Source: an uncultured archaeon (GTDB lineage: Archaea; Thermoproteota; Nitrososphaeria; Nitrososphaerales; Gagatemarchaeaceae). From it: a DNA stretch of 33,197 nt. Where the stretch lies: the NCBI GenBank assembly GCA_963817525.1, contig CAWFOU010000003.1:1-33197 (forward strand), given 5' to 3'. Position numbers and translations under genes: made by a program. Of the stretch, positions 2,820 to 33,114 are shown one piece after another. The notes beneath the pieces are model-generated. The model did not search any database. It worked only from the letters and a program-made list of their open reading frames with translations, and was not told the DNA's origin. How positions within the stretch are numbered: position 1 is the stretch's first letter; each line of letters begins with the position of its first letter.

Positions 2820-2837
2820 AGAAAGGTTCATAAACAT

Positions 2838-2867
2838 TTAACCATTGGCTAATTAACCAGAGGTTAA
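2838..2867. promoter_or_regulatory. Two abutting 15-bp inverted-repeat operators over the hsp20 promoter
   Basis: TTAACC-ATT-GGCTAA (2838-2852) and TTAACC-AGA-GGTTAA (2853-2867), ending 2 nt before the hsp20 TTG. Confidence 0.75.
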
Positions 2868-2869
2868 CC

Positions 2870-3368
2870 TTGTCAGAAGAAAGAAAGAACCTTCGTGATA
2901 TGCTCGATGAGCTCGATCGCTTCTTCCAGGACTTCGAGCGAAGTCTGGAGCAGACGATCAAAGATAGCGTAAACACGGGACAGAAAGCGTTCTCGAAGCC
3001 CGTGGTCGCCGGGATGGCGATGGGGCTCGGGCCCGAAGGCAAACCAAGGATCCAGTTCTTCGGGGACAATCTCATCGGTCCCGACGGATATCGCTCTCCC
3101 ATCTACGAACAGGTGGTGGATATGAAGGCCGGGAACCTGAGGCTGGTCGTGGAGCTCCCAGGCGTCGAGAAGGAAGACGTGCAGATATCCGCACTCGAGG
3201 ACCGCATCACTCTGGACGCAGCGAAGGGCGACAGGAAATACAAGATGGACCTCGCCCTTCAGAACGCGATAGACCCGGAGTCCGGGACCGCGTCTTACAC
3301 AAACGGAGTACTAGAAGTGGTCTTCAAATTGATGGATAAGACTAATAAGGGATACAGGCGAGTCAGAG

Positions 3369-3376
<8 letters not shown>
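2870..3376 (+). CDS. hsp20: Small heat-shock protein (Hsp20/alpha-crystallin family)
   Basis: [13 protein letters not shown] and [10 protein letters not shown] alpha-crystallin motifs; archaeal-type N-terminus. Confidence 0.95.
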
Positions 3377-5560
<2,184 letters not shown>

Positions 5561-5607
5561 TACGGCCGCAATCTCTTTAATCGCCCGGAGCCGTCCAAGG
5601 ATTTCAC

Positions 5608-7253
5608 TTGTCCCAGCAGGTCAAGATAATCGGCAGAGGAACCTGGCTCGACCGAGTCGCTAGCGAGGTCATCGAGAGTGACAAATCGCTGGGTCTGGAC
5701 CTATCGCTCGTCAGGGTCGAGAGCGGACTCGGCGCGTCGGGGCTGCCCCACATCGGCAGCGTCGGAGACGCCATCAGGTCCTATGGGGTCAAGATGGCCC
5801 TCGAGACCTTTGGCTACAAGTCTGAACTCATCGCTTTCTCCGACGACCTGGACGGCTTCAGAAAGGTGCCTGCGGGATTCCCCGCCTGGCTGAACGACTA
5901 CATCGCCCACCCGGTCACTCGCGTCCCCGACCCGTTCGGCTGCCACAAGTCCTTCGGCGAGCACGTGGGGTCGCTTCTCAAGCAGTCGCTCGATGAGCTT
6001 GGGATAAAGTACAACTTCATGAGCGGAGCTGAGGTCTACAAGAAGGGTCTTCTCAACGAACAGATCAAGACGATACTGCAGAACGCAAAGGTGGTCGGGG
6101 ACAAGATCAAGGAGTTCACCGGTCAGGACAAGTACACCGAGAGGTTCCCGTACACCCCGATCTGCGCGAACTGCGGAAGGCTGTACACGACGGTCGTCAC
6201 CGGGTACGACCCGGAGAAGCACCTGGTGCACTACAAGTGCAACAGGGCGAAGAATCAGGGACCTAGTCGTGGTGGGCTGCGGGTACGAAGGTGATAGGGA
6301 CGTCACAGAGGGAGAGGGAAAGCTCGTCTGGAAGAGCGAGTTCGCCGCACGTTGGGCCGCCCTCGATATCCGGTTCGAGGCGTACGGCAAGGACATCGCG
6401 GACTCGGTCAAGGTCAACGACTGGATATGCGAGAACGTCCTCAAGCACCCCCCGCCTTATCACGTCAGGTACGAAATGTTCCAGGACAAATCCGGCCGGA
6501 AGATAGCAAAGTCCGTCGGGAACGTATTGACCCCGGAGGACTGGCTGACCTACGCGTCAGCCGCGAGTCTGAGACTGCTGATGTTCAAGAGGATCGTCGG
6601 GACCCGGAACATTTCCATAGAGGACATCCCGACATACATGGACGAGTTCGACGAGCTAGAGGAATACTACTTCTCTAAGGAGAGAGGATCCGAACCAGCT
6701 GAAGGACGCCAGGCTGCGCGGGCTCTACGAATACACGGTGCTGACCGCCGTCCCGCAGAAGCCCGGAGTACACGTTCCCTATCGTCAAGTCGCAGAACTC
6801 GCTTCGACGGCCCCTGATGGTGTCACCATGGAGTTCGTCACAAGGCGTCTCATCGCTAACGGTGCCGTCATGGAGCCTTCGCCCGAGCTGGCGAGCAGGA
6901 TAGATTGGGCTGCCAAGTGGGCGCGCGCAGTGAAGCTCAGAGCCTCCGAAACTGGAGGTGCGGCGGACAAGCCTGAACAAGAGTTGCCCAGCCTTGACCC
7001 CAAGACGGTCTCTGCCCTCAGAAACTTTGCCTCGGCGGTCGCCGCGAGCAAGACTCCAGAAGAGGCACAGGCCGCAGCCTTCGACTCGGTGAAGCAGAGC
7101 GGCGCCGAGTCTGGAAAGTTCTTCACGGCCGTGTACAGGATACTCGTTGGCGCCGACAGGGGCCCTAGGCTGGGACCCTACGTGATGGACGCAGGTCCGG
7201 AGAAGGTCGCTCAGAAGATTATCGCCGCTCTGGACGCTGCAAGGTATAACTAG
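5608..7253 (+). CDS. lysS: Class I lysyl-tRNA synthetase (apparent frameshifts near 6255 and 6680)
   Basis: SGLPHIGS (HIGH-like), GKLVWKSEFAARW, EAYGKD, KIAKSVGN (KMSKS-like), C-terminal GPRLG. Confidence 0.96.
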
Positions 7254-7276
7254 CCTAGTGGTTTCAGCGGTTCTCA

Positions 7277-7374
7277 GGGCCCGTAGCCTAGTACGGATCA
7301 GGGCATCAAACTGTGCTTGGTGTGCATGCCTGCGAAGCTGGAGGCCGCCGGTTCAAATCCGGCCGGGCCCGCCA
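7277..7374 (+). tRNA. tRNA-Arg(GCG) with 19-nt intron at 29/30 (7309-7327) and encoded CCA
   Basis: Acceptor stem GGGCCCG/CGGGCCC, T-arm GCCGG-TTCAAAT-CCGGC, discriminator G then CCA. After intron removal the anticodon arm is TCAGC-CT-GCG-AA-GCTGG, anticodon at 7332-7334. Confidence 0.93.
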
Positions 7375-7460
7375 TGACTCACCTCTTGTAGATCTCTATC
7401 CGGACCGTCATGCTTCGTTGCCGAGTTTCGAGAGATCCGCTGAGAACCTGGTGTGTCGAG

Positions 7461-7823
7461 CTATGCCTTCCGTCTCGTCCGCCAGAGGTAGAGCGGTATT
7501 AGGACGAGCAGGCAGACCTGCATCACCGAGCCAGCAGCGAAGATGAAGGCCGGCACCGCCTGCCCGGTGCTGAAGAAGGCGTAGTGCTGCGGCTGGGGCA
7601 GTGAGACCGCTAGGACGACGATTGCGAGCACGAATATGACGTAGTAGGCCCACGTTCGCCGCTGCGCTACGGCGAGGCTGCTGATGGCGTAGGCCATCTC
7701 GCCGGCGAAAAGGCTCGCCTGCAGCCAGCCCGGGACGACGCCGCTCACCTCGTAGAGCAGGAAGAGTCCGAGGAACACCGTCGCATAGATCAGTCCGTCG
7801 ACAGCCTTCTTGAGCGCCGTCAT
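7461..7823 (-). CDS. Small hypothetical membrane protein (about 4 TM)
   Basis: Intact 120-aa ORF with four hydrophobic segments and a basic C-terminus; TATA-like tract at 7854-7862. Confidence 0.8.
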   Translation of the reverse strand: MTALKKAVDGLIYATVFLGLFLLYEVSGVVPGWLQASLFAGEMAYAISSLAVAQRRTWAYYVIFVLAIVVLAVSLPQPQHYAFFSTGQAVPAFIFAAGSVMQVCLLVLIPLYLWRTRRKA

Positions 7824-7892
7824 GCTTCCCCGTGCGGCGACCCCGGTCGCTGGATAAATATTCCACGCGGTAGTGATGAAGCGACGGACGAG

Positions 7893-8171
7893 ATGGCACG
7901 CATAAGCGTACGCATTCAGGTCTCAGGACGGGTCCAGGGCGTATCCTTCCGGGCAATAATGCGGGAGGAGGCTATGCACAACCGGGTGGACGGATGGGTC
8001 CGGAATCGAAGGGACGGTTCCGTCGAAGCCCTCCTCCAGGGAGACGAGGTAGCGGTCCGCAAGCTAGTCGAGTGGGCGAGGCTCGGCCCTCCGCGGGCAA
8101 CGGTCTCTTCGCTCAGGGAGGAGAAGCTGAATTCGCACCCGAACCAGGACGGCTTCAGAATCCTGGAGTGA
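7893..8171 (+). CDS. acyP: Acylphosphatase
   Basis: VSGRVQGVSFR and GWVRNRRDGSVEA signatures. Confidence 0.96.
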   Translation: MARISVRIQVSGRVQGVSFRAIMREEAMHNRVDGWVRNRRDGSVEALLQGDEVAVRKLVEWARLGPPRATVSSLREEKLNSHPNQDGFRILE

Positions 8172-8212
8172 TTCTGCAAAGCATAAATCAGTCACACGGC
8201 ACCGCCGGTCTT

Positions 8213-9223
8213 ATGAAAAAAGTCGCCCTGATAAGGGGTGACGGAACGGGGCCGGAGCTCGTCGATGCGATGCTGCTCGTGCTGAAGGCGAGCGGATCCA
8301 GTGCGGAGTTCATCACCTGCGACGCCGGTGCCGACTGGTGGGAGACGAACAAGGGTCCGAGCTTCATCCCCGATGAGACGTGGAAGGTCCTGGAGGAGGC
8401 GGACTGTTGTTTCAAGGGCCCGACCACGACGCTCCCCATCGCGGGAACCCCGAGGTCCGTCGCGATTAGCATCAGGCAGAAGTTCAATCTTTACGCCAAC
8501 GTAAGGCCGATCAAGACATTCTCGGACCGGGTGGGTCCCCTGGGGCCCGTCGACTTCCTCTGTGTGCGCGAAGGAACGGAGGGGCTCTATTCCGGAATCG
8601 AGTACAAGCTGACGGACGACGTCGCGGTTGCGATGCGCGTCATCAGCAGGGACAAGTCGACCAAGGTCTCAAGGTATGCCTTCGAGGAGGCGAGGAGAAG
8701 AGGATGGAAGAAGCTGGTGGCGATCAACAAGGCGAACATCCTCAAGGTCACCGACGGACTCTTCCTCGACTCCGTGCACAGCGTCGGTAAGGCCTACCCG
8801 GAGGTGGAGATAGAGGACCTCTTCATAGACAACTTCTCGCAGCAGCTCGTGAAGAACCCGCAGAGGTTCGACCAGACGGTGGTCCTCGGAACAAACCTCT
8901 TCATGGACATCGTGTCCGAGGAGGCCGCCGGCCTCGTCGGAAGTATAGCGATGATCTACTCGGCGAACATTGGTGACCGCTATGCGATGTTCGAGCCGGC
9001 CCACGGCAGCACGCCGAAGTACAGAGGGATGAACAAGGTCAACCCCGCCGCGACGATCCTATCAGGCGCCTGGATGCTCCAGTACATCGGGGAGGAGAAG
9101 CAGGGCAAGGCCGTCTTCGAGGCAACAATGAAGGTCATCTCAGAAGGCAAGCAGGTCACCTACGACTTGGGCGGGTCGGCGGGCACCAGAGAGATGGCGC
9201 AGGCCATCGCCGCGCAGCTTTAG
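8213..9223 (+). CDS. Isocitrate/isopropylmalate dehydrogenase family enzyme, probably isocitrate dehydrogenase
   Basis: GDGTGPE, KGPTTT, LYANVRP, KANILK, NLFMDIVSE, FEPAHGSTPKY. Start taken as ATG 8213, with CATAAAT about 30 nt upstream. Substrate is inferred. Confidence 0.9.
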   Translation: MKKVALIRGDGTGPELVDAMLLVLKASGSSAEFITCDAGADWWETNKGPSFIPDETWKVLEEADCCFKGPTTTLPIAGTPRSVAISIRQKFNLYANVRPIKTFSDRVGPLGPVDFLCVREGTEGLYSGIEYKLTDDVAVAMRVISRDKSTKVSRYAFEEARRRGWKKLVAINKANILKVTDGLFLDSVHSVGKAYPEVEIEDLFIDNFSQQLVKNPQRFDQTVVLGTNLFMDIVSEEAAGLVGSIAMIYSANIGDRYAMFEPAHGSTPKYRGMNKVNPAATILSGAWMLQYIGEEKQGKAVFEATMKVISEGKQVTYDLGGSAGTREMAQAIAAQL

Positions 9224-9229
9224 TGCGTG

Positions 9230-9286
9230 TCAGAGAACGCTGCTTGACAGGCCGCCGATTCAGCTTGACGGTCACTTGGTCATCAT
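9230..9286 (-). ncRNA. Possible C/D-box sRNA
   Basis: Intergenic minus strand reads ATGATGA-16nt-CTGA-26nt-CTGA (57 nt). No clear C' box and no target identified. Confidence 0.3.
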
Positions 9287-9345
9287 CCTTTTGACTCTTG
9301 GTGAGGATATATATTGGGCAACCTCGAGTCAGATGATCATCTAGT

Positions 9346-9744
9346 ATGCAAAATCCCCCCGCCGCTGCAGAAGCATTTACGCCTCCGGCCGATATCATAT
9401 TGGTTACGACGCCTTTCGTGTCTGGCTATCGTGTGACCCGTGTCGTAGGCGCGACGTTTGGGCTGATCGTAAGGTCACGGGGACTAGGACAGAACGTCTT
9501 CGCGTACTTCCGGGCTTGGGGTGGAGGCGAGATTAAGGTGTACACCACTCTCCTAGAACAGGTGCGCCACCAAGCAATGCGGCGGCTCGCGGACCATGCA
9601 AAGAGCCTAGGAGCGAACGCGGTCGTCTCAGTCGGCTTCGACACGTCAGAGATGGGTTCGTCAATGACAGAAGTGCTCGCCTATGGTACAGCGGTGGTCG
9701 TGGAACCTGACACCTCTCCTGCACAGCAGGTCGCGCTCCGCTGA
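9346..9744 (+). CDS. ybjQ: YbjQ/UPF0145 family protein
   Basis: GGEIKVYTTLLEQVRHQAMRRL, LGANAVV, EVLAYGTAV. Confidence 0.93.
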   Translation: MQNPPAAAEAFTPPADIILVTTPFVSGYRVTRVVGATFGLIVRSRGLGQNVFAYFRAWGGGEIKVYTTLLEQVRHQAMRRLADHAKSLGANAVVSVGFDTSEMGSSMTEVLAYGTAVVVEPDTSPAQQVALR

Positions 9745-9827
9745 GACAATGCGGGGCCGCGCTATATTTTCAGACGGACTCCCTTTAGCGCGGAACGCTT
9801 ATTTATCGTCGAAGAGTCGCTCGGGGT

Positions 9828-10460
9828 ATGTCTCTTCTGGTCAGGATAGACGCTGAGATCGAGAAAAAGAGCCTCCTCAAGCATCCCTTCTACCGAATGT
9901 GGTCAGAGGGCAAGTTGACGCAGGAGAACCTCGCAGGCTATTCAATGGAATACTTCCAGTTGGTCAAGGCTGTGCCGCGGCTAGTCTCCAACGTCGCCGG
10001 GTTAGCGGGACCTGCGCGTTCCGGCCAGATAAGGGAGAACATGGAGGAAGAGGTCACACACATCGAGCCATGGAGGAGGTTCTCAGCCTCTCTCGGCGTA
10101 TCCAAGAGCAAGCTGGAGAGTTACCGCGGTGCTGCGGCCACCCTCAATTGTGTCCGCAGTTTGGAGCAGCTCACGCTCTCTTCCTTCGAGGAGGGTACGG
10201 CAGCGCTCTACGCCTACGAAAAGCAGCTACCCGAGATCAGCCGCTCCAAGATTGACGGACTGAGGAAGTTCTACGGACTGGAGGGCGGGGATGCGACGAG
10301 ATACTTCGAGCTACACGAAGAGGCTGATGTCAGACACGCCGCGGTCTGGAAGGCCTTTCTGGCGAGGACCACTTCTGACCGGAAGGTCATGAAGGCGGTG
10401 TCCGGTTCGTTGAAGGCACAGAACGGCCTTCTCGATTCGGTTATGGCCAACCACTGCTAG
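9828..10460 (+). CDS. CADD/CT610-like heme-oxygenase-fold dimetal oxidase (PqqC/TenA superfamily); putative pABA synthase
   Basis: HPFY-x2-WSEGKLT, EEEVTH, ALYAYEKQLPEISRSKIDGL, YFELHEEADVRH; lies directly upstream of folB-folK. Confidence 0.85.
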   Translation: MSLLVRIDAEIEKKSLLKHPFYRMWSEGKLTQENLAGYSMEYFQLVKAVPRLVSNVAGLAGPARSGQIRENMEEEVTHIEPWRRFSASLGVSKSKLESYRGAAATLNCVRSLEQLTLSSFEEGTAALYAYEKQLPEISRSKIDGLRKFYGLEGGDATRYFELHEEADVRHAAVWKAFLARTTSDRKVMKAVSGSLKAQNGLLDSVMANHC

Positions 10461-10526
10461 AACGGTCTAAAGCGCAGCGAGGGCGAAGCTTAAGACCCGA
10501 CGCGTTGCTCGTGGTCGCAGCTCTCA

Positions 10527-10893
10527 ATGACCGATAGGATATTCATCGACAACCTTCGTCTCAGCTGCAGAGTGGGCATCACACCGGAGGAGAGAGAGAA
10601 AACACAGGAGGTCCTGGTCGAGATCAACATGTTCCTGAGCCTCGCAGGGGCCGGGAAGAGCGACGATGTGAAGCAGACGGTCAACTACAAGGAGGTCATG
10701 CAGCGCGTCTCCCTCTTCGTCTCGGGAAACAGTTCGGTCTGCTCGAGAGCCTTGCCGAGGGTATCGCCGGTATCGTGATGGCGTCTTCCTCGTGGAGCAG
10801 GTCGTGGTGAGGGTGCGCAAGGCCAAGTATTCGGGAGAACCCTCGATCGGGATAGAGGTCGCAAGGGACAGAAAGTCATGGTCGAGTCGCTGA
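10527..10893 (+). CDS. folB: Dihydroneopterin aldolase FolB (frameshifted)
   Basis: DRIFIDNL, VGITPEEREKTQEVLVEI, DDVKQTVNY; shifted frames continue FGLLESLAE and VVVRVRK...IGIEV. Confidence 0.9.
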
Positions 10894-11381
10894 TAGCGCT
10901 AGGCTCCAACGTCGGGGAAAGGGAGGAGAACCTGAGGCGCGCCGATCGCCGCTTTAGGACGGCTGGGGAAGATGTCCAGTGTCTCGTCCGTCTACGAGAC
11001 GGAACCCATGTACCTCAAGGACCAGGGCTGGTTCCTGAACTGCGTCGTCTCACTGCAGACCGACCTGAGACCCGAGGGACCTGCTCGAGGCGCTGAAGGC
11101 GATAGAGACAGCTATGGGCAGGACCGCGCGAGCAGATACGGCCCGCGGGTCTTGGACCTGGACATCCTCTTCTACGAGTCGGAGGTCGTCTCGGAGCCGG
11201 GGCTGGAGATACCGCACCCAAGGATCGCTGAGAGGGGGTTCGTCCTCGCTCCGCTCGAGGAGATACGGCCCACCCTGGTGCATCCTGTGCTCGGCAAGAC
11301 GGTATCCGAGATGCGCGCGAGCTGAAGGTCGACAAGAAGGTCGTCAGAAGACTCGGCCCGCTGTCCGACCCCGTCCCGTGA
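10878..11381 (+). CDS. folK: 6-hydroxymethyl-7,8-dihydropterin pyrophosphokinase FolK (frameshifted)
   Basis: IALGSNVG, SSVYETEP, FLNCVV, RYGPRVLDLDIL, IPHPRIAERGFVLAPL. End at 11325 or 11381. Confidence 0.93.
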
Positions 11382-12239
11382 TAGCCTCTGCGACTCTGAC
11401 TGCTTGGACAGTCTCCCTGACGTCGTGGGTCCTTATCATGTCGCTCCGTTGACGACGGCGACTGCCGTGGCGGCGATCGAACCGTACAGCCTCTCCCCAG
11501 GGTCGTCAAGCTTCAGATCTTACCAAGGAACGACTTGCGCGATAGGCCCACGCAGAGGGGTCTGCCGAGCGCTTCCAGCCTCCTCAGTTCGGCGAGGACC
11601 TTCTCGTCCCACTCGTGCCATGGCATGAGCTGCCTGGGGCGAATAAGCCCTTCCCGGCTCCTTCCTCCCTGAAGAAGCCGATCGCCAGGGTCGAGGACGA
11701 CTTTCCGGTCGTCGATTCCCGCCCTCTCCGCTTTGGCGAGCGTGTCCCGCAGAGCGTGACGCACCTGGACTATCGGGTCCGCCTGACTGCAAATGCGGTC
11801 GAGTGGGCCATGGCCACAAGCGAGGCTCCGTAATCCTTCACCACGCTGGCCATCCTCCTGTCGTTCTTCAGCCCGGAGACGTCATTGATGACTGACGCGC
11901 CGTTCTTGAGCGCGACCTCTGCGACCGAAGCCCTCACCGTGTCGACGGAGACGACGTCACCGTTGCCTTCCATCGCCCTCAGCGCCGCGACCGTATGCGC
12001 TCTGTCTCGACCTCTTCCGTCACCTCGTTCTTCAGGTAGGGGGCGGTCGACATGGCCCCGACGTCTATTATGTCGGCCCCCTGTTCGACGGCGTCCTTCG
12101 CGCCTGCGCTATAGCTCCGCGGTGACGTGACCACCGAGCCCTTGTAGAACGATTCTGGACTGACGTTCATGGCGGCCATCACCCGGACGGGAAACCCTGG
12201 GCCGACCTGCAGTGCGCCCAGCCTCGCGGTCCTCTTCAA
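11344..12239 (-). CDS. folP: Dihydropteroate synthase FolP (multiply frameshifted)
   Basis: MNVSPESFY, GADIIDVGAMSTAP, VSVDT, INDVSG, VLDPG, VGLSRKSF, RTHDV. Confidence 0.93.
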
Positions 12240-12336
12240 GGGGCCCAGACTCGTCCCGCGTGGCCTGTAAAGCTATCGGTCCGTCCGACCCATTCCAGGG
12301 TTACCTTTTTTAGCGCCTCCGAGGTCCGGACTGCGT

Positions 12337-12935
12337 ATGTCGACCAGCGACGAGCAGCTCAAGAGAGCCGCCGACCTCAAGCTTTGGATAGAGTCGCGGA
12401 TAGCGGAGCTTCAGGAGGAGATCGAGAAGCTGAAGGAGGCCCAGGCCATGGTCGACGCCGTCCTCAGGGCCTCGAGCTTCAGGCCTGCGAGCGAGGTGCA
12501 CGCTACGTCCGAGCAGCCCCGCGCCCAGAGAGGAGCCGCAGCGCCACGGCAGGAGGGCGGCCAGATACCCGAGATGAGGGAGCTGCGCAGGGACAAGGGA
12601 GGCGAGACGATCGCCGTCGCGCAGATGACAGGGACAGGGTCGTCATAGAGCCCGTGGCCGAGGTCATCGCTCAAGTCCGAGACCCCACCGTTCAAGTCGT
12701 TCCTGGTCGGCAAGATACTGACGGGGATGAAGACGAAGGACGAGGAGCTCGCTCGCCAAGGGAAAGCTCGACAAGGGCAGGGAGATGCGCTTCAACGTCG
12801 CACGAGAAGGCAGGGAGGATCTCGAGCATCACCATAGACAACTACAGGGAGAGCGAGAGGCTGACGGAGATACTCAACACCGTAGGCTGGACCTTCTCCA
12901 GGATGCTCGAGAAGGGCGCTACTTCATCACGGTGA
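12337..12935 (+). CDS. Hypothetical protein with N-terminal coiled coil (frameshifted)
   Basis: ORF 12337.. (ESRIAELQEEIEKLKE) continues in other frames to TPPFKSFLVGKIL and IDNYRESERLTEILNTVGWTFSRMLEK. T-rich promoter tract at 12306-12312. Confidence 0.7.
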
Positions 12936-13431
12936 CGCTCTTCACCGTCTCTGAACGCGTTCAGCTCGGCGATCACGCTAGCCCGGCACCTGCCCCTCCA
13001 CTATCAGGGTCAGCTTGGCGTCGGGGAACATGTCCGGGTCGTCCGCCAGCGCCTGCCTGACGACGATCTTGTGCTTGGCGAGCGCCGCGGTCGCCGCCGA
13101 GATGATGCCCGGCTGCCCTGAGGGTCCGCCTCTATCACGATCGCCGAGTAGCCGAGCCTGCGAGACCACGGGGAGCAGGCTCGCGCCGAAGGGCGTTATC
13201 TTCGAGAAGATCGAGTAGAGGAAGTCGTCCCCCCTTATCTGCTCGGCGGTCTGCTTCACCACCCTCCTGTCGGCCCCGACGTCCCTCGCCAGCGCCGAAT
13301 AGTCGACCTCCAGCCCGCCTATGAACAGCCTGCAGTCTTCGGAGACCCTGATCCCGTACTCCAGCATCCTCCGGGCGACCTCGAGCCTCACCTTCTGGCC
13401 TCGCGAACTGCTCGCTGACCCTCGACCACAA
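12919..13431 (-). CDS. Archaeal HTH + ACT-domain protein (COG2150-like; frameshifted)
   Basis: MWSRV...VARRMLEYGIRV, ALARDVGADRRVVKQTAEQI, PGII...IVVRQALADDPDM, KLTLIVEG. Confidence 0.8.
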
Positions 13432-13466
13432 GCGCCCAGCTCCTCACCCCTCGCGCGAGTCCGCAC

Positions 13467-14823
13467 TCAAGGCGAAGCGCCGTAGGCCCTGGTTACTCTT
13501 GACGCCCTCCACCAGCACCCAGGGGCTCAGCGTGGGCGTCGTCGACCTCCCACCACTGGATCCACTCTCTCTGCCTTCGAGAGCAGCCTGACGGAGGAGA
13601 GCATCCTCTCGAGCGAGTCGCTGATCCGCAGGCCGCTCAGCGGCTGCGTTACGCGCCCGTTCTCGACGAGGTAGGCCCCGTCCCTCGGTACGGTCGAGAA
13701 CTCGCCGGTCCTGTAGTTGGTGAACCTGCGTGTACCAGTTGCTCGTCAGGATTATCCCGTGCTTCATCTCCTTCACCATCTCCTCGTAGCTGGAGTCTCC
13801 CGCGCCCGACCTCCAGGTTCCAGCGGTCCGGGCTTGATCCAGCCCGCGTTCCCCGTGCGTCTTGCGTCTTGAACTTCTTCGCGGTGCTGAGGTTGTGGAG
13901 GTAGCTCCTCAGGACGCCCCTGCTCGATTATCTTCGTCGACTGGGTCGGGGTCCCTTCGTCGTCGAAGTCCTGCCGCCGAGGCCTCCCTCGATCCTGCCG
14001 TGGTCCGTGAGGTTGAAGTTGTCGGAGGCGACCTTCTTTCCCATCTTGTCGACGAGGTAGGACGTCCCCGCGTCGACCGAGAACGCCGAGGCGAACCCCC
14101 CGATGAGCGAGATGAGGTTGGCCGCGACCGTCGGGCTGAGCAGCACCTCGTAGCTCCCCGCCTCCGGCGGCTTGGAGTTGAGCATCCTCTTGGCGTGCTC
14201 AGCCCGCCCTCCTTCCCGCCTCCTTCGGGTTGAAGCTCCTTAGGCGTGGCCGAGCACGACAGGCCGTGACCGCTGGCGTTCCTGTCGGTGAACGACCTGA
14301 TGTTCAGCAGGATGCTGGACGGACGTCGTTGGCCGGACGTCCCGTTCGAGGTGAGTATGTGGCTCGTGACGAGGGAAGCCTCGACGGCGCCGGCGCTCCT
14401 TCGGGCGCCCGCTGCTCTTGCGGCTGCGATCGCCTCGGCGGCGAACTCGAGGCAGTTCCTTCTCGAGCTCGCCCAGCTTCTTGTCGTAGACTGCCGGGCC
14501 TGTTGAACGTCCTGCGCGTGTTAGGGAGCGGCGCGTAGACCGGTTCCTTGCTGAGGTTGACCATCGTCTTGTGCAGGCGCTCGACGAAGTCCGCCAGCCG
14601 CTCCTCTGTCGTGTTGTCGAGCCGCCGACTATCCTCTTTCCGTCCTTGGCCAGGTAGACCGAGACGACGCTCTCCTCTGTCCTCTTCGCGACGCGTCAGC
14701 GAGTCGTTCGCGAACCTTACCATCTGCTCGGTCCCGTTCGCCGACTGAAGGATGCGCATCGTCCACGCCGAGCTTCTTCGCGACCTTCATCCCGTGCTCG
14801 TTCAGCTCGCTGAGGTCCATCAC
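13467..14823 (-). CDS. tldE: TldE/PmbA family protein (heavily frameshifted)
   Basis: QMVRFAND, GSYEVLLSPTV, GKKVASDNFNLTD, ILTSNWYT, GEFSTVPRDG-like segment; directly downstream of tldD. Confidence 0.85.
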
Positions 14824-14824
14824 A

Positions 14825-16262
14825 TCACCTCGTGCCTATCCTCACCCGCCCGAGCAGCGTGTCCGGCCCTCCTGTCCAGACGGGTATGCCCTGCATCGGG
14901 TCCCCCTTGCCGCAGACCGCCGCCTCGAACTCTAGCCTCTTGCTCCTCGCCTTCACGCTCCCCCAGAGCGCCGGGGTCGTGATCTCGAGGACGGGGGCCT
15001 TCACCATCTCGCCGACGCTGCCGCCCTTGATGCGGTATGCCTCGAGCCCGACGTACCTCTGGTTCAGCCTCTTGTCGTCGATGTTCCATTCGGTGAACGA
15101 CTTGAGGTAGATGCCGTCCTTGACCTCCTTGATTATCTCCTCCGTCGTGTAGTCGCCCGGCTCGACGAAGGTGTTGGACATCCTGATGATGGGCTCCCTG
15201 TTGAAGTCCGTCCGCGCGGCGGCGCCGTTGTCCCTGACCTTGAGCTCGCGCGGCGGTGCTCCTGTTCTGCAGGAACTCGGTGATCTTCCCGTCGACTATC
15301 AGGCTCCTCTTCGTGGCCCTCACCCCCTCGTCGTCGACGGGGCGTAGCCGTTGGAGTGGGCGAGCGTCGGGTCGTCGCTGATGTTGGCCTCCCTGCTCCC
15401 GACCTTGAACCCGATGCTGTCCTTCTTCAGGTATGACTCGCCCGCCTGCGCGCCCTCCCTCCCGAGGATCCTGTCTGCCTCCTGTGGGTGGCCCACGGAC
15501 TCGTGCGCGGCTATCCCCGAGAGCTCGGGGCTCAGTATCACGTCCATCACCCCGTGGGAGACTTCGTCGCCTTGGCGAGCACCTGGCGCAGTATCCGCGC
15601 CTCCTCCTCGACCTTGGAGACGAGGTCCAGCCTCTCCACGACCTCCAGCCCTCCGGTCTCCGCCTGCTGGATCATCCTCTGCGCGACCTCCCCGCTCTGC
15701 GATGGCGGTGAGTATGCCGAAGAAGTGAATCCGCGGGGTCCTGCACTCCACCTCCGAGCCGTCGCTGTTGACGTAGTACTTCTCCTCCAGCTCGGAGCTG
15801 CGCGACCAGGATCCTGTTCGGTATCTTCGCCTGCCCTTCCCGGCCTGCATCCTCCCGTCGATCTCGAGGAGCAGCGACTTCAGCCAGGAGGCGTCCGCTC
15901 CCTCTATGTTCTCCTTCTCCGGGGCGATCACTTCTGTCGCACGCCGGGCACTCTTCCAGCTTCACCTTCTTCTTGACGAGGGCACTCGAACGCCTTCGCC
16001 ATCCTGACGGTCCTTGCGGTCAGCGTCCTTCACGGCTGCCTTTTCCAAGGTGTTGGTCGCGCCGAACGCGAGCGCCCCTCCGTAGATGACCCTGATGCCC
16101 ATGCCGAAGCTGTCCTCGATCATCGAGGGCTGAGGTTCGCCGTTCTTCAGCAGGAAGCCCGAGCCGACGTCCCCCTGGATCCTCGCCTCCGCGTAGGTCG
16201 CGCCGAGCTTCCTCGCCTCGCGGACCGAAAATGCGGCCAGGTCCTTGTGTTCTCCCTATCAT
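14825..16262 (-). CDS. tldD: TldD family metalloprotease (frameshifted)
   Basis: LGATYAEAR, AHESVGHPQEADR (HExxGHxxExD), RMSNTFVEPGD, CGKGDPMQ. Confidence 0.92.
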
Positions 16263-16304
16263 CCTGGCGGCTTTCGAGCGCCTTCGTTATTTCTATCTTT
16301 GCAG

Positions 16305-16838
16305 TCAGTGACACTGGAGCGTCTCTGATGATTCCCTGCAGATCCTCGTCTGCTCGGCTAGGTTCTCGCCGTCGAGGTCGCGTAGATGACGTAGTACCTC
16401 CCGGTCTTGTCGCAGTGGATGTGGACAGACGTCACCTCCTGCTCCTGTCCCCTTCCCGAAGAGACCCCGCCTGGGCACCTCCATCTTCACGTGGTTGTAC
16501 GACCGCCGTGTGTCCGTTGACGTCGATCTCCTTGTGGTCGAGGGGGGTCATCTTCCCCTGGACGCTCTTCTTCACCCGGTCGAGGCTGAACTTGGCGTGG
16601 TCCTCTATGGTGGGCGCCTTCTTCATCACCTTCTCGAGCTCCCCCCAGGACACGAAGACGACCGCCTTCTCTGGGGCCTTCACCGCGACGTCGCCGTCGG
16701 TCCGCTTGAATTCGGGTTGAACTCGAGCTTGCGGTCTTTGGGAACTCGAAAGAAAAACCATAGATCTCCAGCGTGTCCTTCTCCACCGGCACGTCGCCCA
16801 CGGCAGGTCCATGCTTCGGCGTTCTCCATGGCTTCCAT
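16305..16838 (-). CDS. Hypothetical protein (frameshifted)
   Basis: Joined frames give LEIYGFSFEFP, DVAVKAPEKAVVFVSWGEL, IDVNGHTA, VHIHCDKTGRYYVIY. TTTTAT on the minus strand near 16862-16867. Confidence 0.6.
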
Positions 16839-16948
16839 TGGTTCTGCTGCCAAGGACCATGATAAAAGATTGTCCGGACGCGCTGTCCGCGCCTCGCCGG
16901 GGCTCAGAAACGCTTAAGTCGACTCGCCGCGCAATACGTCACACGAAG

Positions 16949-17065
16949 TTGCTCCCGCCTCTCGCGCTGGGTCCGGACACGCTCGACTCTCTCGCAATAC
17001 TCGCTGTCGCACTCGGCATCGCGGGCGTCGCAATACTGATTCTCTTCGCCAAAGACAAGATCTAG
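16949..17065 (+). CDS. Small single-TM protein (about 38 aa)
   Basis: From TTG: MLPPLALGPDTLDSLAILAVALGIAGVAILILFAKDKI. CTTAAG at 16913-16918 upstream. Confidence 0.5.
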   Translation: MLPPLALGPDTLDSLAILAVALGIAGVAILILFAKDKI

Positions 17066-17075
17066 TGGTCGATCC

Positions 17076-17733
17076 TTGATCAAGGACTGATCTTCGACGT
17101 AGACGGCACTCTCGTGAGCCTCAAGGTCGACGGGGAGAACCTCAGGTCCACCACGTCACGCGAGCTGAGCCAAGATGGGGTTTGACGTCTCCTTCATGAA
17201 CGAGGGAAACATGTACACCCAGGACGTCATCGACAGGGCGAAGCACAGGTCGAGACGGGAGCGGTGAAGGCCGACTTCGAGGTCGTCAGGGCCACCCTCA
17301 ACAAGGCCCTGGACGAACTCGAGATGGACTGGAACGCGCAGGCCGAGCCGATCGAGGGCACCGGGGCGACCTCGCCCGGCTGAAGTCCAGCTCGGTCAAG
17401 CTCGCAACGCTGACCAACAGCGGCCGCGCCCCCTCCGACTGGCTCCTGAAGAAGCACGGCCTCTTCGGCTACTTCGACTTCACCCTCACCAGGGACGATG
17501 TCCCCGCAATGAAGCCGAGCGCCGACGGGATGCTGAAGGCGATTTCCAGGATGGGCTCTCCCGCCGGACGAGGTCCTCTACGTCGGCGACAGCATAATCG
17601 ACGTGAAGGCGGCCAAGGCGGCGGGCATGAAAATAGCCTCGGTGGCCACAGGAAGGTACACTTCGAGAGGCTGACCCAGGAGGGCAGCGACTACGTCCTC
17701 AACTCACTGTCCGAGCTCGTCGGGTTTATCTAG
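17076..17733 (+). CDS. HAD-superfamily hydrolase (phosphoglycolate phosphatase-like; frameshifted)
   Basis: LIFDVDGTL (motif I), LTNS (II), KPSADG (III), YVGDSIID (IV). Confidence 0.9.
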
Positions 17734-20292
17734 TGCTCTGAGCGTTCAACTTCGACAGCTTTTCCCTTATCTCCCTGTTCTCGCCCTTGAGCTTCTCGAC
17801 CTCCTCCTTGAGCGCGGCGACTGCTCGTCGGGGAGAACGGATTCCAAGTCGACCAGGACCTCGGCGGCCTTCCGCCGGTTCCTGTTGTCCGGGTCCTCGG
17901 CGGCCACTTTCTCGAGTGTCTCGACGAACCTCCTGTCGCGTAGCTCTCCCATGGTCTCCAAAGCTGCATCCTGACGACAAAGTCCTTGTCCCCGATCGCG
18001 ATCTCCTTCAGCAACGGGACGTCGGCCTCCTGGAGGGTACCCAGCTTGTGAAACCCTTCAGAGCACCGACCCTGACACGAGTCGGCTTCCCATATGGGAT
18101 GATTCGCCCTCATCGTCACTCTGGCGTCTCGCTCTTGGTCGCTCCCCGTGCCTCGAGGGAGGCCTCCGTGAGCCCGTTCTCCGGAGAAGGCAACTGCATC
18201 GCCTCGCGGAGGAGTCGTACGGCGTCGGCTGCCCCGGACTTGGCCAGCGAGAGCGCGGCTTCGCACTGGACATAGGGGCTCTCGTCATGGAAGAGGGCGT
18301 CCCTGAGTGCCGCCTGGGCACCTGCGTCGCCCTTGAACTCGCCGAGCGCCGCGACTACTGCCCCTCCTCACCCTCCTGTGCCTTGACGGTGCGGAGTCCA
18401 GGAGCGTCTCGAGCGCCTGCTTTCCTCCTATCTTCCCGATCGACCTCGCGGACTCAGCCCTGACCGACCAGTACTGTTCCTTCAAGGCCGCCTTGTTGAG
18501 CACCTCCACGGTCGCATCGTCCTTGAAAGCGGAGAGGTCCTCGGCCGCCTGTTTCCTGCTGAGGACGTCGACGCTGAATTCCAGTTGGTTGACAAGCAGC
18601 GAGCGGCTCTTCCTGAAGCTCAGCTTCTTCAGGAGCCATCCCTCGGGGTCGACCTCGACGATGGTCGGCTCGGAGTCAAGCTGGAAGTGTAGCTCTCCCT
18701 GCGCCGGACCCAGACCTTCCTCATCTCCCTCCCCTTCCCGGTGTAGAAGACGAGTCGCAAGGGAAGTGGAAGATGGGCGTCAGCGCGTCGACGGTCTGCA
18801 TCTGCTTGACCGAGACCACGGCGAGCATGGCTCTCTCCGTCCCAGGAGTAATCCACCTCGAGCTCGGGGTGACCGGCCTTGAAGAACGACTGTTCGAAGT
18901 ACGCTCTCGAGCGAGACGCCGCTCGTCTCCTCCATCACCCTCATGAAGTCGTGCGTGTCCACGTTCCTGAAGGCGAACCTCTTCAGGTACTCCCTGAGGC
19001 CCCTGAAAAAGGCCGCGTCGCCGAGGAGGTACCTGAGCTGGTGCATCATCCACGCCAACCCTTTTCGTACTCGTAGCGAATCGAAAGGTCGTCGGGATAG
19101 AGATAGTCGTCCTCGACTATCGACCTCCTGTACTGTCTCGTCCTCCTCGAAGTGTGACTCCGCCTTGAACCGCATGTTCTGCCTGAACTCGTCACTTCCC
19201 GAACTTCCTCTCGTGATAGACCGCCTCCATGTAAGTGGCGAAGCCCTCGTTGAGCCACGCGTGCGACCAGTCCTTTGTCGTCACCAGGTCGCCGAACCAC
19301 GAGTGGGCCAGCTCGTGCGCGACGAGCTCGATGTGGTTCCTGTCCGGCCGCGAGTACCTCGCCGCATAGTCCTCCTCGGACCTGCTCGTCCGGGAAGCGG
19401 TTGTCGACGAGCGTGGTCGCGCTGATGTTCTCCATCCCGCCGTAGATGAAGTCGTGGACGGCCACCTGAGCGTACTTCTCGTACGGATACTTGTGCGCCG
19501 TAAGCTCGACGAAGCGACCGCATCATGTCAGGGGTGAGGCCAAAGTACCTCATCGTATCCTTGGCTCTTCTCCTCCGGGACGTAGTACTGGAGCGGGACG
19601 CCACCTCGACCTGGTCGCTCAGTCTCCACGAACTTTCCGACCACGAAGGAGTTGAGGTAAGTCGAGTGGGGGGCGCTCTCGCTCCAGTTGAACGTCGTCC
19701 ACCCTCCCGAGCTCTCCTTCGAGACGAGCTTCCCCGTTGGAGATCACCTGATACCGTCGGGCGCCGTGATTATCGTCTCCGTGGTGGCTCTGTCGTCTGG
19801 GTGGTCGTGGCATGGGAACCAGTATCGGGCTGCTGTCGACTCGCTCTGCGTCCACACCTGGACCGGCTTGTTCGGGTAGGCATCGTCGGGATGCACGAAG
19901 TACACTCCGTGCACCGGTCTTGCCGAGTATTCCACAAGGACCTCGTGCTTCGAGGCCTCGCCGGCATTTGCCAGCCTCACCGTGAGGGTATCCCCGTCGT
20001 GGTCAAAACGGGCCAGCTTGCCGTCGAGCGAACTCTGCTCATGCCCATCTCGCACGCGTCGAAGGCTGATCGACCGTAGCCGTCTCTCCGGATGGCTCGA
20101 TCTTCAGCGAGCAGCTCGCCCGCTATGCGTCTTGGCTTCCGGGTCGACCTTCAGCCTGACTCTGATGTGCTCGGTCCTGTATTCCTTGTCCGGCAGGTAG
20201 TGTTTGAAGGAGCCCGGGGAATGGAACGACTTTCGCTTGCTCAAGGTCCATGCTCCGGGCTTGACCTCTTGAAAACCGTTTTCCGGGCTCAT
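17730..20292 (-). CDS. pepN: M1 family aminopeptidase with C-terminal HEAT-like repeats and coiled coil (heavily frameshifted)
   Basis: [37 protein letters not shown]...WLNEGFATY (HExxH-x18-E), YEKG, HEAT-like [15 protein letters not shown]. Confidence 0.9.
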
Positions 20293-21351: not shown

Positions 21352-21413
21352 CTTGATTTCCGGAGCGGGCGCCTCTCCTCAGCTTTTATACATGCACCCC
21401 TCCGAACGGACCG

Positions 21414-23846: not shown

Positions 23847-23944
23847 GAAACAGGACGCCGATTCCAATACGGCTTAAAAACATGCACAACACGGTTCGCG
23901 CCGCCTGCATTCGCGCCACCTCTTCGGCGGAGCCCTTGACTTTC

Positions 23945-24487: not shown

Positions 24488-24621
24488 GAAAGGCGCGTTG
24501 AGCCCGATTATTTAACACGAGCGAGATGTGCCTTGACCCACCCTTAGCCGCCACGGACGATTATTCGTTGACCCACGAGTTCCTGAAGGCGTAAATATGC
24601 TCAGACGGGAATTTCGCGTAC

Positions 24622-25981: not shown

Positions 25982-26044
25982 GCCCGAATACCGCGCCTAC
26001 TGCGCGCCTCTCAAATAGAGGGGCTCGACGCGCGCTGCACACGC

Positions 26045-26977: not shown

Positions 26978-26980
26978 AGT

Positions 26981-28008: not shown

Positions 28009-28077
28009 ACCGGAAATCCCTCCGCTTAGTCGGTTCTAACCCTTTCGACTTCCTGGATTGCCGCTAACCGTTGGGGG

Positions 28078-31741: not shown

Positions 31742-31820
31742 GTACTTTACTTTTCCGCCGGGCTCTCCGAGTCCACTTAAGCGTTCCGGGCTGACCCTAG
31801 CAACTCGCGAATTCCCGGGC

Positions 31821-33108: not shown

Positions 33109-33114
33109 TTGCGA

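What the first reader, a model, noticed from the sequence alone, without database searches (positions are those of the whole stretch)
9828..12239. Archaeal folate cluster built around a CADD/CT610-type self-sacrificing pABA synthase
Seen: an intact 210-aa heme-oxygenase-fold ORF directly precedes folB-folK and faces folP, and no pabA/B/C is in the window. Established: Chlamydia CADD (CT610) and Nitrosomonas NE1434 support pABA synthesis without PabABC. CADD uses O2 and its own Tyr27 and Lys152, with metal ligands E81, H88, E142, H174, D178, H181. By-eye equivalents here are Y22/Y38 (same spacing as Y27/Y43), E131/K141 (as E142/K152), H163-D167-H170, and E75/H78 with a shorter loop. Inference: this archaeon makes pABA by an O2-dependent self-sacrificing route. 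I know of no characterised archaeal example but cannot check whether this neighbourhood is already reported.
Basis: partly seen in the sequence, partly recalled or inferred. Interest (0 to 1): 0.82.

Follow-up and report, generated by a model that had tools for sequence, protein, structure and literature searches.

The report
Archaeal CADD-type pABA synthase beside folate genes
A soil archaeon carries, next to its folate-building genes, a close structural relative of the bacterial enzyme that makes the vitamin precursor p-aminobenzoate by sacrificing its own tyrosine and lysine; the same gene is in nearly all ammonia-oxidising archaea, where it is usually mislabelled.

Summary
The 210-aa ORF at 9828-10460 is real, intact and confirmed letter for letter by independent short-read contigs. 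It belongs with CADD/CT610 and not with PqqC or TenA. It scores 177 bits on TIGR04305 against 25 bits on PqqC. CADD is its best solved relative (E 1e-33), and the AlphaFold model fits it at TM 0.93 and 1.6 A. The sacrificial Tyr27 and Lys152, the six listed metal-ligand positions and the two Tyr that set Mn/Fe preference are all kept. All but one of those Tyr (Y130, Tyr or Phe) are invariant in 44 of 44 archaeal homologues.

These are assembly errors. About 140 frameshifts riddle the contig, and short-read contigs carry frame-restoring 1-base indels at 8 of the 13 sites.

The contig is a co-binned Gagatemarchaeum-like, non-ammonia-oxidising thaumarchaeon. The fol linkage holds in 11 of 11 same-genus loci. 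It is absent in ammonia oxidisers, which nevertheless almost all carry the gene. No PabB or PabC was found.

Verdict: a new archaeal member of a known enzyme kind, predicted but not assayed. I found no paper reporting it, though two key papers could not be read.

The parts
9794..9806 (+). Promoter-like element AACGCTTATTTAT, about 25 nt upstream of the ATG. It looks like an archaeal BRE/TATA box and would give a leaderless mRNA.
   Evidence: AA...TTAT.TA is invariant at a nearly fixed distance (1-2 nt of variation) from the start codon in 6 of 6 Gagatemarchaeum-type upstream regions aligned. Promoter function is inferred and was not tested.
9828..10460 (+). CADD/CT610-type heme-oxygenase-like dimetal oxidase, the predicted self-sacrificing p-aminobenzoate synthase (210 aa, intact)
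   Evidence: TIGR04305 177.1 bits, E 3.4e-52. PDB hits: 1rcw 1e-33, 8va9 1.6e-33, 9pj4 3.7e-29. AF2 pLDDT 97.1. Foldseek to CADD: TM 0.93/0.91, rmsd 1.6 A. Y22, E74/E75, H78, E131, K141, Y159, H163, D167 and H170 are invariant in 44 of 44 sequences. Short-read contigs match exactly.
10527..10893 (+). folB (dihydroneopterin aldolase), broken by 2 frameshifts near 10723-10729 and 10758-10788
   Evidence: PF02152 60.3 bits and TIGR00526 60.8 bits on the first piece. Three-frame reading against orthologues. Frameshift-aware alignment. Short-read contigs insert one base behind 10723 and one behind 10788.
10878..11381 (+). folK (HPPK), overlaps the folB stop by 16 nt and is broken by 4 frameshifts (about 10944, 11068, 11122, 11313)
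   Evidence: PF01288 85.2 bits and TIGR01498 92.6 bits on the largest piece. Frame reading. Short-read contigs carry indels at 10942, 11074 and 11123.
11344..12239 (-). folP (dihydropteroate synthase), convergent with folK, broken by 7 frameshifts
   Evidence: Three pieces each hit PF00809 and TIGR01496. Frame reading. Short-read contigs carry indels at 11442, 11516 and 11774/11784. The intact orthologue on C1 scores 207.7 bits against a cut-off of 162.6.
9346..9744 (+). YbjQ-family gene between the IDH-family gene and the CADD gene. It is a neighbour and not part of the pathway.
   Evidence: PF01906 113.4 bits. On C1 the IDH-family and CADD genes lie 55 nt apart.

Best explanation
The ORF encodes an archaeal member of the CADD/CT610-NE1434 family of heme-oxygenase-like dimetal oxidases.

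Inferred from the bacterial enzymes: it binds a two-metal centre and activates O2. Both Tyr next to the metals are kept, as in CADD, so the centre is probably Mn/Fe. It passes a radical through aromatic residues to its own Tyr22 and cleaves that side chain. It takes the amino group from its own Lys141 and releases one p-aminobenzoate per protein molecule.

Inferred from gene order and the conserved promoter-like element: it is transcribed from its own promoter together with folB and folK. FolB and FolK make the activated pterin. The convergent folP product, dihydropteroate synthase, joins that pterin to pABA. The cluster therefore holds both substrates' last steps and the condensation.

The frameshifts in folB, folK and folP are errors of this assembly and not gene decay.
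For: **Family placement**
- TIGR04305 177.1 bits, against PqqC 24.7 and BesC 23.5.
- The best solved relatives are CT610 and the '4-aminobenzoate synthase' entries.
- A profile of 44 archaeal homologues hits CADD at 3e-49 and 9pj4 at 1e-42. PqqC reaches 9e-10 and UndA/TenA-type entries 3e-4 or weaker.
- The model (pLDDT 97.1) superposes on CADD at TM 0.93, against 0.83-0.85 for PqqC and 0.77-0.81 for TenA.

**Residues**
- The equivalents of Tyr27, Lys152 and the listed ligand positions are kept and invariant in 44 of 44 sequences. So is the equivalent of Tyr170; that of Tyr141 is Tyr here but Tyr or Phe across the set.
- Their roles come from passages of PMC9522330 and PMC11965152.
- Internal control: the same genome's PqqC-like paralogue scores 219.6 bits to PqqC and 54 to CADD. 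It lacks Y22, K141, H78, H163 and H170.

**Context**
- CADD-folB-folK plus convergent folP is present in 11 of 11 same-genus loci. folB also follows CADD in 6 of 7 Gagatemarchaeum-type loci of the public scan; the 7th ends at its contig end.
- Across 41 relatives: 18 have CADD and DHPS, 17 have neither, 2 have CADD only and 4 have DHPS only.

**No rival route**
- G000 has only TrpE (in a trp operon) and an isochorismate synthase (in a men cluster). Its single class-IV aminotransferase is IlvE.
- G007, the nearest complete relative, has one chorismate-binding enzyme.

**Aerobic host**: COX1 at 410 bits.

**Frameshifts are artefacts**
- 140 shifts in 24 gene alignments with 6 in-frame stops in all (3 of 24 alignments; 2 of them in the folB/folK row), against 0 shifts in 9 of 11 control alignments.
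- Short-read contigs carry frame-restoring indels at 8 of the 13 fol sites.
Against: - No activity, complementation or expression data exist for any archaeal member.
- The score is below NCBI's trusted cut-off for TIGR04305 (177.1 against 200). None of the 201 class genomes searched exceeds it.
- In the ammonia-oxidiser families the homologue is not next to fol genes: 0 of 5 loci and 0 of 73 loci. Context evidence therefore comes from one genus only.
- G028 (94% complete) has the gene but no DHPS hit. G030, G033, G034 and G039 have DHPS without it.
- Canonical FolC, FolE and DHFR were not found in G000, so the pathway's end is unclear.
- The pab absence was tested on G000, whose main chromosome is a different organism from the window's contig.
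- G007 has three unclassified class-IV aminotransferases.
- The short-read contigs differ from the window by 5-9% beyond 10552. There they represent a sister strain and not the window's own DNA.
Confidence: 0.8

Rival explanations
1. The protein is a PqqC- or TenA-type enzyme (PQQ synthesis or thiamin salvage), as public annotations and a genomics paper on this family read it. Its place beside fol genes would then be incidental.
For: Sources name close homologues 'pyrroloquinoline-quinone synthase', 'PQQ biosynthesis protein C' or 'TenA family transcriptional regulator'. PMC10640624 counts a thaumarchaeal 'pqqC' as PQQ synthase (passage). The genome has PQQ-dependent dehydrogenase-like genes. 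PF03070 matches at 46.3 bits.
Against: PqqC TIGR02111 scores only 24.7 bits against a cut-off of 240. No PqqC or TenA structure appears at E<=0.01 with the single sequence. Fold match is TM 0.83-0.85 and 18% identity to PqqC, against 0.93 and 33-34% to CADD. The genome holds a separate PqqC-like paralogue (219.6 bits) beside a PQQ-dehydrogenase-like gene. No PqqE exceeds its cut-off. The dimetal ligand positions are kept here but not in the genome's PqqC-like paralogue.
Confidence: 0.04
2. It makes pABA, or a related aromatic amine for a pterin cofactor, but works catalytically on a free substrate such as tyrosine. It would not sacrifice its own residues.
For: A one-turnover enzyme is costly for slow-growing oligotrophs. 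Nothing here tests turnover number. The archaeal clade is divergent, with 33-34% identity to CADD and a score below the family cut-off.
Against: Both sacrificial residues are invariant in 44 of 44 archaeal sequences. Both characterised bacterial enzymes are self-sacrificing (abstract and passages of PMC11965152; passages of PMC9522330).
Confidence: 0.1
3. In this organism the fol genes are real pseudogenes and only the CADD gene survives. The cluster would be a relic, or the CADD gene would serve another purpose.
For: There are 13 frameshifts in 1.75 kb of folB, folK and folP, against none in the adjacent 630-bp CADD ORF. No contig from the window's own strain covers the fol part.
Against: The same shift density runs through every gene alignment (14 of 14) from 10.7 to 27 kb: 127 shifts in all, for example 23 in an 853-aa gene and 16 in a 449-aa gene. 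In-frame stops are few (4 in all, 2 of them in the folB/folK row) and identity after frame correction is 56-87%. Among the substitutions listed between 11169 and 11236, 7 of 10 fall at third codon positions by my reading's table, which indicates purifying selection. The sister strain's contigs are in frame at 8 of 13 sites. All 11 same-genus loci align full-length without breaks.
Confidence: 0.04

Closest known systems
CADD / CT610, the p-aminobenzoate synthase of Chlamydia trachomatis (PDB 1rcw, 8va9)
   Same: Same fold (TM 0.93/0.91, rmsd 1.6 A). Tyr27, Lys152, Tyr141, Tyr170 and the ligand positions E81/H88/E142/H174/D178/H181 all have identical residues here. Like CADD it sits in a cluster with folB, folK and folP (passages of PMC4161248).
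   Different: Only 33-34% identical. The loop between the EE pair and the ligand His is 3 residues shorter. The host is an archaeon. folK and folP are separate genes here, fused in Chlamydia. folA and folC2 are not in this cluster. There is no reason to expect the host-cell role reported for CADD.
NE1434 / NePabS of Nitrosomonas europaea. PDB entry 9pj4 is probably this protein; its species is not given in the output.
   Same: E 3.7e-29 over the full length. It has the same sacrificial Tyr and Lys (abstract of PMC11965152). It shares a C-terminal Cys with most archaeal homologues.
   Different: NePabS has Phe at the two positions next to the metals and prefers Fe/Fe (section 14 of PMC11965152). 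9pj4 shows Phe at both aligned positions. The window protein has Tyr at both (Y130, Y159), as in CADD, which predicts Mn/Fe.
PqqC (PQQ synthase)
   Same: Same heme-oxygenase-like superfamily (TM 0.83-0.85).
   Different: 18% identity and 24.7 bits against a cut-off of 240. The genome's own PqqC-like paralogue lacks Y22, K141 and three of the six listed ligand positions (H78, H163, H170).
Other heme-oxygenase-like dimetal oxidases (BesC, UndA, HrmI) and TenA thiaminases
   Same: Same helical fold. The weak sequence hits are BesC at 4e-4 and UndA at 3e-4 with the profile.
   Different: TM 0.74-0.85 with 10-19% identity. They act on free substrates and are not linked to folate genes; this last point is recalled and was not tested here.

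Membership tests
CADD-type self-sacrificing pABA synthase (TIGR04305 / HDO superfamily) | Heme-oxygenase-like helical fold superposable on CADD | tested here: met
   AF2 pLDDT 97.1, pTM 0.92. Foldseek top four hits are CADD chains: TM 0.93/0.91, rmsd 1.6 A over 212-214 columns.
CADD-type self-sacrificing pABA synthase (TIGR04305 / HDO superfamily) | Residues at the six dimetal-ligand positions.
   The aligned residues are E74 (E75 adjacent), H78, E131, H163, D167 and H170. All are invariant in 44 of 44 archaeal homologues. Metal binding itself was not tested.
CADD-type self-sacrificing pABA synthase (TIGR04305 / HDO superfamily) | Sacrificial Tyr27 (carbon scaffold) and Lys152 (amine donor) | tested here: met
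   Y22 and K141 align to them and are invariant in 44 of 44. They are absent from the PqqC-like paralogues. Their roles come from passages of PMC11965152 and PMC9522330.
CADD-type self-sacrificing pABA synthase (TIGR04305 / HDO superfamily) | Aromatic residues next to the metals (CADD Y141, Y170) | tested here: met
   Y130 and Y159 align to them. Y159 is invariant and Y130 is Tyr or Phe across the 44. Their role comes from section 14 of PMC11965152.
CADD-type self-sacrificing pABA synthase (TIGR04305 / HDO superfamily) | Score above NCBIfam's curated cut-off for TIGR04305 (200 bits) | tested here: not met
   177.1 bits, E 3.4e-52, full length 6-206 of 210. None of 201 class genomes exceeds the cut-off. 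The archaeal clade is therefore a divergent branch that the curated threshold leaves unnamed. This is an annotation threshold, not a biochemical feature.
CADD-type self-sacrificing pABA synthase (TIGR04305 / HDO superfamily) | Genomic association with folate genes and lack of PabB/PabC | tested here: met
   Linkage in 11 of 11 same-genus loci. No PabB or PabC in G000. One chorismate-binding enzyme in G007 and in 5 of 5 CADD-bearing genomes of other families that are at least 94% complete. The linkage is not seen in the ammonia-oxidiser families.
CADD-type self-sacrificing pABA synthase (TIGR04305 / HDO superfamily) | pABA formation from the protein's own residues with O2 and metals; rescue of pab mutants | not testable with these tools
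   Needs bench work.
PqqC (TIGR02111) | Score above the curated cut-off (240 bits) | tested here: not met
   24.7 bits.
PqqC (TIGR02111) | Companion PQQ genes | tested here: not met
   No PqqE exceeds its cut-off; the best is 74.7 against 381 bits. pqqA, pqqB and pqqD were not searched. A distinct PqqC-like paralogue (219.6 bits) lies elsewhere in the genome.
TenA / thiaminase II | Closest relatives and fold are TenA-like | tested here: not met
   PF03070 is a broad superfamily model (46.3 bits). No TenA structure appears at E<=0.01. TM 0.77-0.81 with 10-15% identity. TenA catalytic residues were not examined.

The most novel reading that the evidence does not exclude
The CADD-type single-turnover enzyme is the sole pABA source of the whole order Nitrososphaerales, which includes essentially all ammonia-oxidising archaea. 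It is the gene that annotations and evolutionary reconstructions have counted as 'pqqC'.

Folate supply in some of the most abundant archaea on Earth would then cost one protein molecule per pABA. It would also depend directly on O2 and on Mn/Fe.

The gain of this gene at the base of the mesophilic thaumarchaea would belong with their gain of folate-dependent one-carbon genes and their move to oxic habitats.
Probability: 0.6. Interest if true: 0.65.

Novelty: new member of a known kind. Interest (0 to 1): 0.5.

Why it matters
**The gap it fills.** How most archaea make pABA is unsettled (recalled). The biochemical papers I read describe the CADD route as one of 'select bacteria' (abstract of PMC11965152).

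**What is shown here.**
- A clean archaeal orthologue with every functional residue is widespread in the class sample. It was found in 112 of 114, 5 of 5, 14 of 14 and 2 of 2 genomes of the four families that include the ammonia-oxidiser controls. It was found in 0 of 64 genomes of the other families (f18-f26). These counts include one unpublished genome, G169.
- These genomes lack a PabB-type enzyme.
- In one genus the gene sits inside a folB-folK/folP cluster. That gives the guilt-by-association evidence that the ammonia oxidisers lack.

**What follows.**
- It makes a directly testable prediction for cultured Nitrososphaera and Nitrosopumilus strains.
- It corrects a recurrent PqqC/TenA annotation.
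- It gives enzymologists a third, distant branch for asking what sets metal choice and radical transfer.

It is not a new kind of enzyme.

Tried and rejected
**Literature**
- Nine full-text searches were run. The terms combined CADD, CT610, NE1434, COG5424, pABA/aminobenzoate, aminobenzoate synthase, pqqC, archaea, Thaumarchaeota and ammonia-oxidising archaea.
- None returned a paper linking this enzyme family to archaea.
- Not held, so not read: Macias-Orihuela 2020 (PMC7515239) and Phan 2024 (PMC12186997).
- Satoh 2014 and Wooldridge 2023 are known to me only from reference lists.
Its SI Fig. S10, which lists orthologues from folate clusters, may name archaeal members.

**Sequencing runs**
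- No RNA holder was listed.
- The parts 12108-12400 and 11628-11683 have no fitting contig.

**Computation**
- A plain blastn alignment of the fol region to G007 was useless for locating indels: 108 gap openings at 75% identity.
- A first tblastn chaining with a 55% identity filter undercounted frameshifts. It was replaced by a frameshift-aware dynamic programme with a control.
- That programme's row for folB/folK used a stop-to-stop query that runs through folB in another frame. I therefore took the split into 2 and 4 shifts from my own three-frame reading.

**Not done**
- A tree including bacterial CADD, PqqC and TenA. No named bacterial sequences were available to me as stored proteins. HMM, PDB and fold comparisons stand in for it.
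- Classifying G007's three class-IV aminotransferases.
- Examining window 26963-33197 for frameshifts.
Full report
**What is in the sequence.**
- The ORF at 9828-10460 (+) is open, starts at ATG and encodes 210 aa.
- On the same strand follow pieces of folB (from 10527) and folK (from 10878).
- Pieces of folP lie on the opposite strand from 12239 downwards.
- Upstream lie an acylphosphatase gene (7893-8171), an isocitrate/homoisocitrate/isopropylmalate-dehydrogenase-family gene (8213-9223, below every curated cut-off) and a YbjQ-family gene (9346-9744).

**The fol genes are frameshifted.** None of the three is an open frame here.
- I read the three frames against orthologues and ran a frameshift-aware alignment.
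- folB has 2 shifts, folK 4 and folP 7.
- The reconstructed spans are 10527-10893, 10878-11381 and 12239-11344.

**Why I read the frameshifts as errors.**
- The window is the whole of contig C3 of a 15-contig, 2.82-Mb assembly.
- The same alignment method found 140 shifts in 24 gene alignments across 1-26962. Nineteen of the 24 genes are hit.
- Only 5 shifts lie between 2202 and 10457. 127 lie between 10.4 and 27 kb. Examples are 23 in an 853-aa gene and 16 in a 449-aa gene.
- Only 6 in-frame stops appear in all, in 3 of the 24 alignments. Identity after frame correction is 50-93%.
- As a control, the same queries on the good-quality contig C1 gave 0 shifts in 9 of the 11 genes with a hit. The other two gave 1 and 2 shifts, which I put down to stop-to-stop query artefacts.
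- Short-read contigs from four soil-metagenome runs of one study may include the source sample. They cover 9563-10551 with no difference at all.
- From 10552 on, those contigs differ by 5-9% in substitutions. By my reading of the table, 7 of the 10 listed between 11169 and 11236 fall at third codon positions.
- They also carry single-base indels at 10723, 10788, 10942, 11074, 11123, 11442, 11516 and 11774/11784. These lie at 8 of my 13 inferred sites and have the sign that restores the frame.
- The other 5 sites are not spanned, or their rows were not shown.
- The CADD ORF therefore sits at the end of a clean block, and the fol genes at the start of a noisy one.
- Why quality and strain identity switch near 10.55 kb is unexplained. 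A chimeric or partly polished long-read consensus is my guess.

**Whose DNA it is.**
- C3 is syntenic, in inverted order, with C1:805-842 kb. Parts are 75-80% identical in DNA and gene products are 33-97% identical.
- C1 carries its own intact copy of the cluster: an IDH-family gene, CADD (222 aa), folB (122 aa) and folK (174 aa), with a convergent folP (303 aa).
- Those three fol products score above the curated cut-offs: DHPS 207.7/162.6, FolK 141.5/54.1, FolB 75.8/72.15.
- The window's protein is 52% identical to the C1 copy and 80% identical to that of OY969807.1, which is G007.
- Estimated contamination of the bin is 8.75%.
- C3 is thus most likely a contig of a second, related species in the bin.
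- The best public matches are an uncultured Nitrososphaerota MAG, 'Candidatus Gagatemarchaeum stordalenia' and peat-bog Nitrososphaerales MAGs.
- GC is 61%. Passages of PMC10640624 give 54-62% for Gagatemarchaeaceae.
- amoA was not found in G000 or G007, but was found in 4 of 4 genomes of other families used as controls.
- A heme-copper oxidase subunit I is present at 410 bits.

**What the protein is.**
- NCBIfam: TIGR04305 'CADD family putative folate metabolism protein' 177.1 bits (E 3.4e-52, residues 6-206, cut-off 200). PqqC scores 24.7 and BesC 23.5.
- PDB by sequence: CT610 1e-33, '4-aminobenzoate synthase' 8va9 1.6e-33 and 9pj4 3.7e-29, then BesC 4e-4. No PqqC or TenA entry appears.
- A profile of 44 archaeal homologues widens the gap. 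CADD scores 3e-49, 9pj4 1e-42, the best PqqC 9e-10, UndA 3e-4 and the remaining TenA-type entries 5e-4 or weaker.
- The AlphaFold model (pLDDT 97.1, pTM 0.92) matches CADD chains at TM 0.93/0.91, rmsd 1.6 A and 33-34% identity.
- PqqC follows at TM 0.83-0.85 with 18% identity. TenA proteins follow at 0.77-0.81 with 10-15%.

**Residues.**
- The 1rcw chain numbering equals the literature numbering. A passage of PMC4161248 notes a start 15 nt downstream of the predicted one.
- On the HMMER alignment the equivalents are Tyr27=Y22, Tyr43=Y38, Glu81=E74 (E75 adjacent), His88=H78, Tyr141=Y130, Glu142=E131, Lys152=K141, Tyr170=Y159, His174=H163, Asp178=D167 and His181=H170.
- Tyr27 as scaffold and Lys152 as amine donor are stated in passages of PMC11965152 and PMC9522330.
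I did not see it in a paper.
- Section 14 of PMC11965152 reports that Phe at the Y141 and Y170 positions goes with Fe/Fe in the Nitrosomonas enzyme, and Tyr with Mn/Fe.
- The window protein has Tyr at both. 9pj4 has Phe at both aligned positions.
- In 44 archaeal sequences, which include five ammonia-oxidiser-family loci, the following are invariant: Y22, Y38, Y42, E74, E75, H78, W82, Y128, E131, K141, Y159, H163, D167 and H170. Y130 is Tyr or Phe.
- A paralogue elsewhere in the genome (C1:1029363-1030004) scores 219.6 bits to PqqC and 54 to CADD. It lies beside a PQQ-dehydrogenase-like gene.
- That paralogue has Met, Arg, Asp and Arg at the positions of Y22, K141, H78 and H163, and no His at the position of H170.

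**Context and distribution.**
- In 11 of 11 same-genus loci fetched with 6-kb flanks, CADD is followed by folB and folK and faced by folP.
- In the public species-representative scan the 80 best loci are all Nitrososphaerales.
- Of its 7 high-GC Gagatemarchaeum-type loci, 6 have folB next to CADD and the 7th ends 90 nt after the gene. None of the other 73 has FolB, FolK or FolP within its flanks.
- Five ammonia-oxidiser-family loci carry unrelated neighbours instead.
- Upstream of the start codon, AA...TTAT.TA is invariant in 6 of 6 aligned Gagatemarchaeum-type loci, about 25 nt before the start. I read it as a BRE/TATA promoter giving a leaderless CADD-folB-folK transcript. This is inference.
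- Across a class-wide sample, 134 of 201 genomes have a match at E<=1e-25: f12 112/114, f9 5/5, f15 14/14, f4 2/2 and the families f18-f26 0/64. None exceeds the curated cut-off. The sample includes one unpublished genome, G169.
- Among 41 relatives, strong CADD hits and DHPS hits co-occur in 18 and are both missing in 17. Two have CADD only and four DHPS only. Relatives are not independent, and in this genus the genes are one locus.

**Other routes to pABA.**
- G000 has two chorismate-binding enzymes. One is an archaeal-type TrpE (532 bits, cut-off 512) beside TrpG and TrpB. The other is an isochorismate synthase (279.7, cut-off 224.75) among menD, menH, menE, menA and menC.
- G000 has one class-IV aminotransferase, IlvE at 413 bits.
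- G007 has a single chorismate-binding enzyme. So do G027, G028, G032, G035 and G038, the five CADD-bearing genomes of other families that are at least 94% complete.
- G007 also has three class-IV aminotransferases that I did not classify.
- The route from dehydroquinate proposed for methanogens has no known genes, as far as I recall, and cannot be tested here.
- In G000 I found a type-IB GTP cyclohydrolase (98.6 bits). I found no canonical FolC, type-IA FolE or DHFR. The last steps of the pathway are open.

**Comparison with what is known, and novelty.**
- The enzyme kind is known and well studied in Chlamydia trachomatis and Nitrosomonas europaea.
- The archaeal proteins are members by fold, residues and best-hit relations. 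They fall below NCBI's naming threshold.
- Public sources call them PQQ synthase, TenA regulator or 'iron-containing redox enzyme'.
- A genomics paper on this very family counts a thaumarchaeal 'pqqC' as PQQ synthase, gained together with folate one-carbon genes (passage of PMC10640624). I cannot tell which paralogue it means.
- Nine searches found no paper reporting the archaeal enzyme. Two key papers and one supplement could not be read.
- I rate it a new member of a known kind, of moderate interest. The prediction is clean, testable in cultured strains and touches very abundant organisms. A specialist would not be greatly surprised.

Noticed in passing
window 1-33197 (whole contig C3) against G000:C1:805000-842000: The window is a second, diverged copy of a 37-kb stretch of the main chromosome. 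Gene order is the same but inverted, and gene products are 33-97% identical. Bin contamination is 8.75%. It is probably a contig of another Gagatemarchaeum species binned with G000.
   Followed up: partly
window 2202-10551 against 10552-26962: Sequence quality changes sharply near 10.55 kb. There are 5 frameshifts in 8 kb before it and 127 in 16.5 kb after it. Short-read contigs are identical before it and 5-9% different after it. The cause is unknown; a chimeric or partly polished consensus is possible.
   Followed up: partly
G000:C1:1029363-1030004 (L027 3310-4278, minus strand) and L027 1319-3313: A PqqC-like paralogue (219.6 bits, cut-off 240) lies beside a 664-aa PQQ-dependent-dehydrogenase-like gene. 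No PqqE exceeds its cut-off in the genome, so how PQQ would be made is unclear.
   Followed up: partly
relatives G009, G010, G014, G015, G018, G019, G020, G022: Eight of the 22 other same-genus genomes lack both the CADD and the DHPS match. They include assemblies of 3-10 contigs, at 54-87% completeness. The whole cluster may be present or absent as a unit, which would mean folate or pABA dependence in part of the genus.
   Followed up: no
relatives G030, G033, G034, G039: These have DHPS but no CADD-type match. G033 and G034 have only one chorismate-binding enzyme. Their pABA source is unknown.
   Followed up: no
G000 whole genome: Canonical FolC, type-IA GTP cyclohydrolase and DHFR were not found, while a type-IB cyclohydrolase is present. 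The glutamylation and reduction steps must use other enzymes.
   Followed up: no
window 10455-10457 (Cys210) and alignment A1: Most of the archaeal homologues shown (17 of the 22 rows printed) end in a Cys; two more have it one or two residues from the end. The last residue of the query aligns to a Cys of PDB entry 9pj4. I know of no role for it.
   Followed up: no
G000:C7:44836-45195, C10:9048-9407, C14:5958-6317: Three contigs give near-identical radical-SAM matches (36.0-36.2 bits, same 572-aa open frame). Small contigs C10 and C14 look like duplicates of a C7 region.
   Followed up: no
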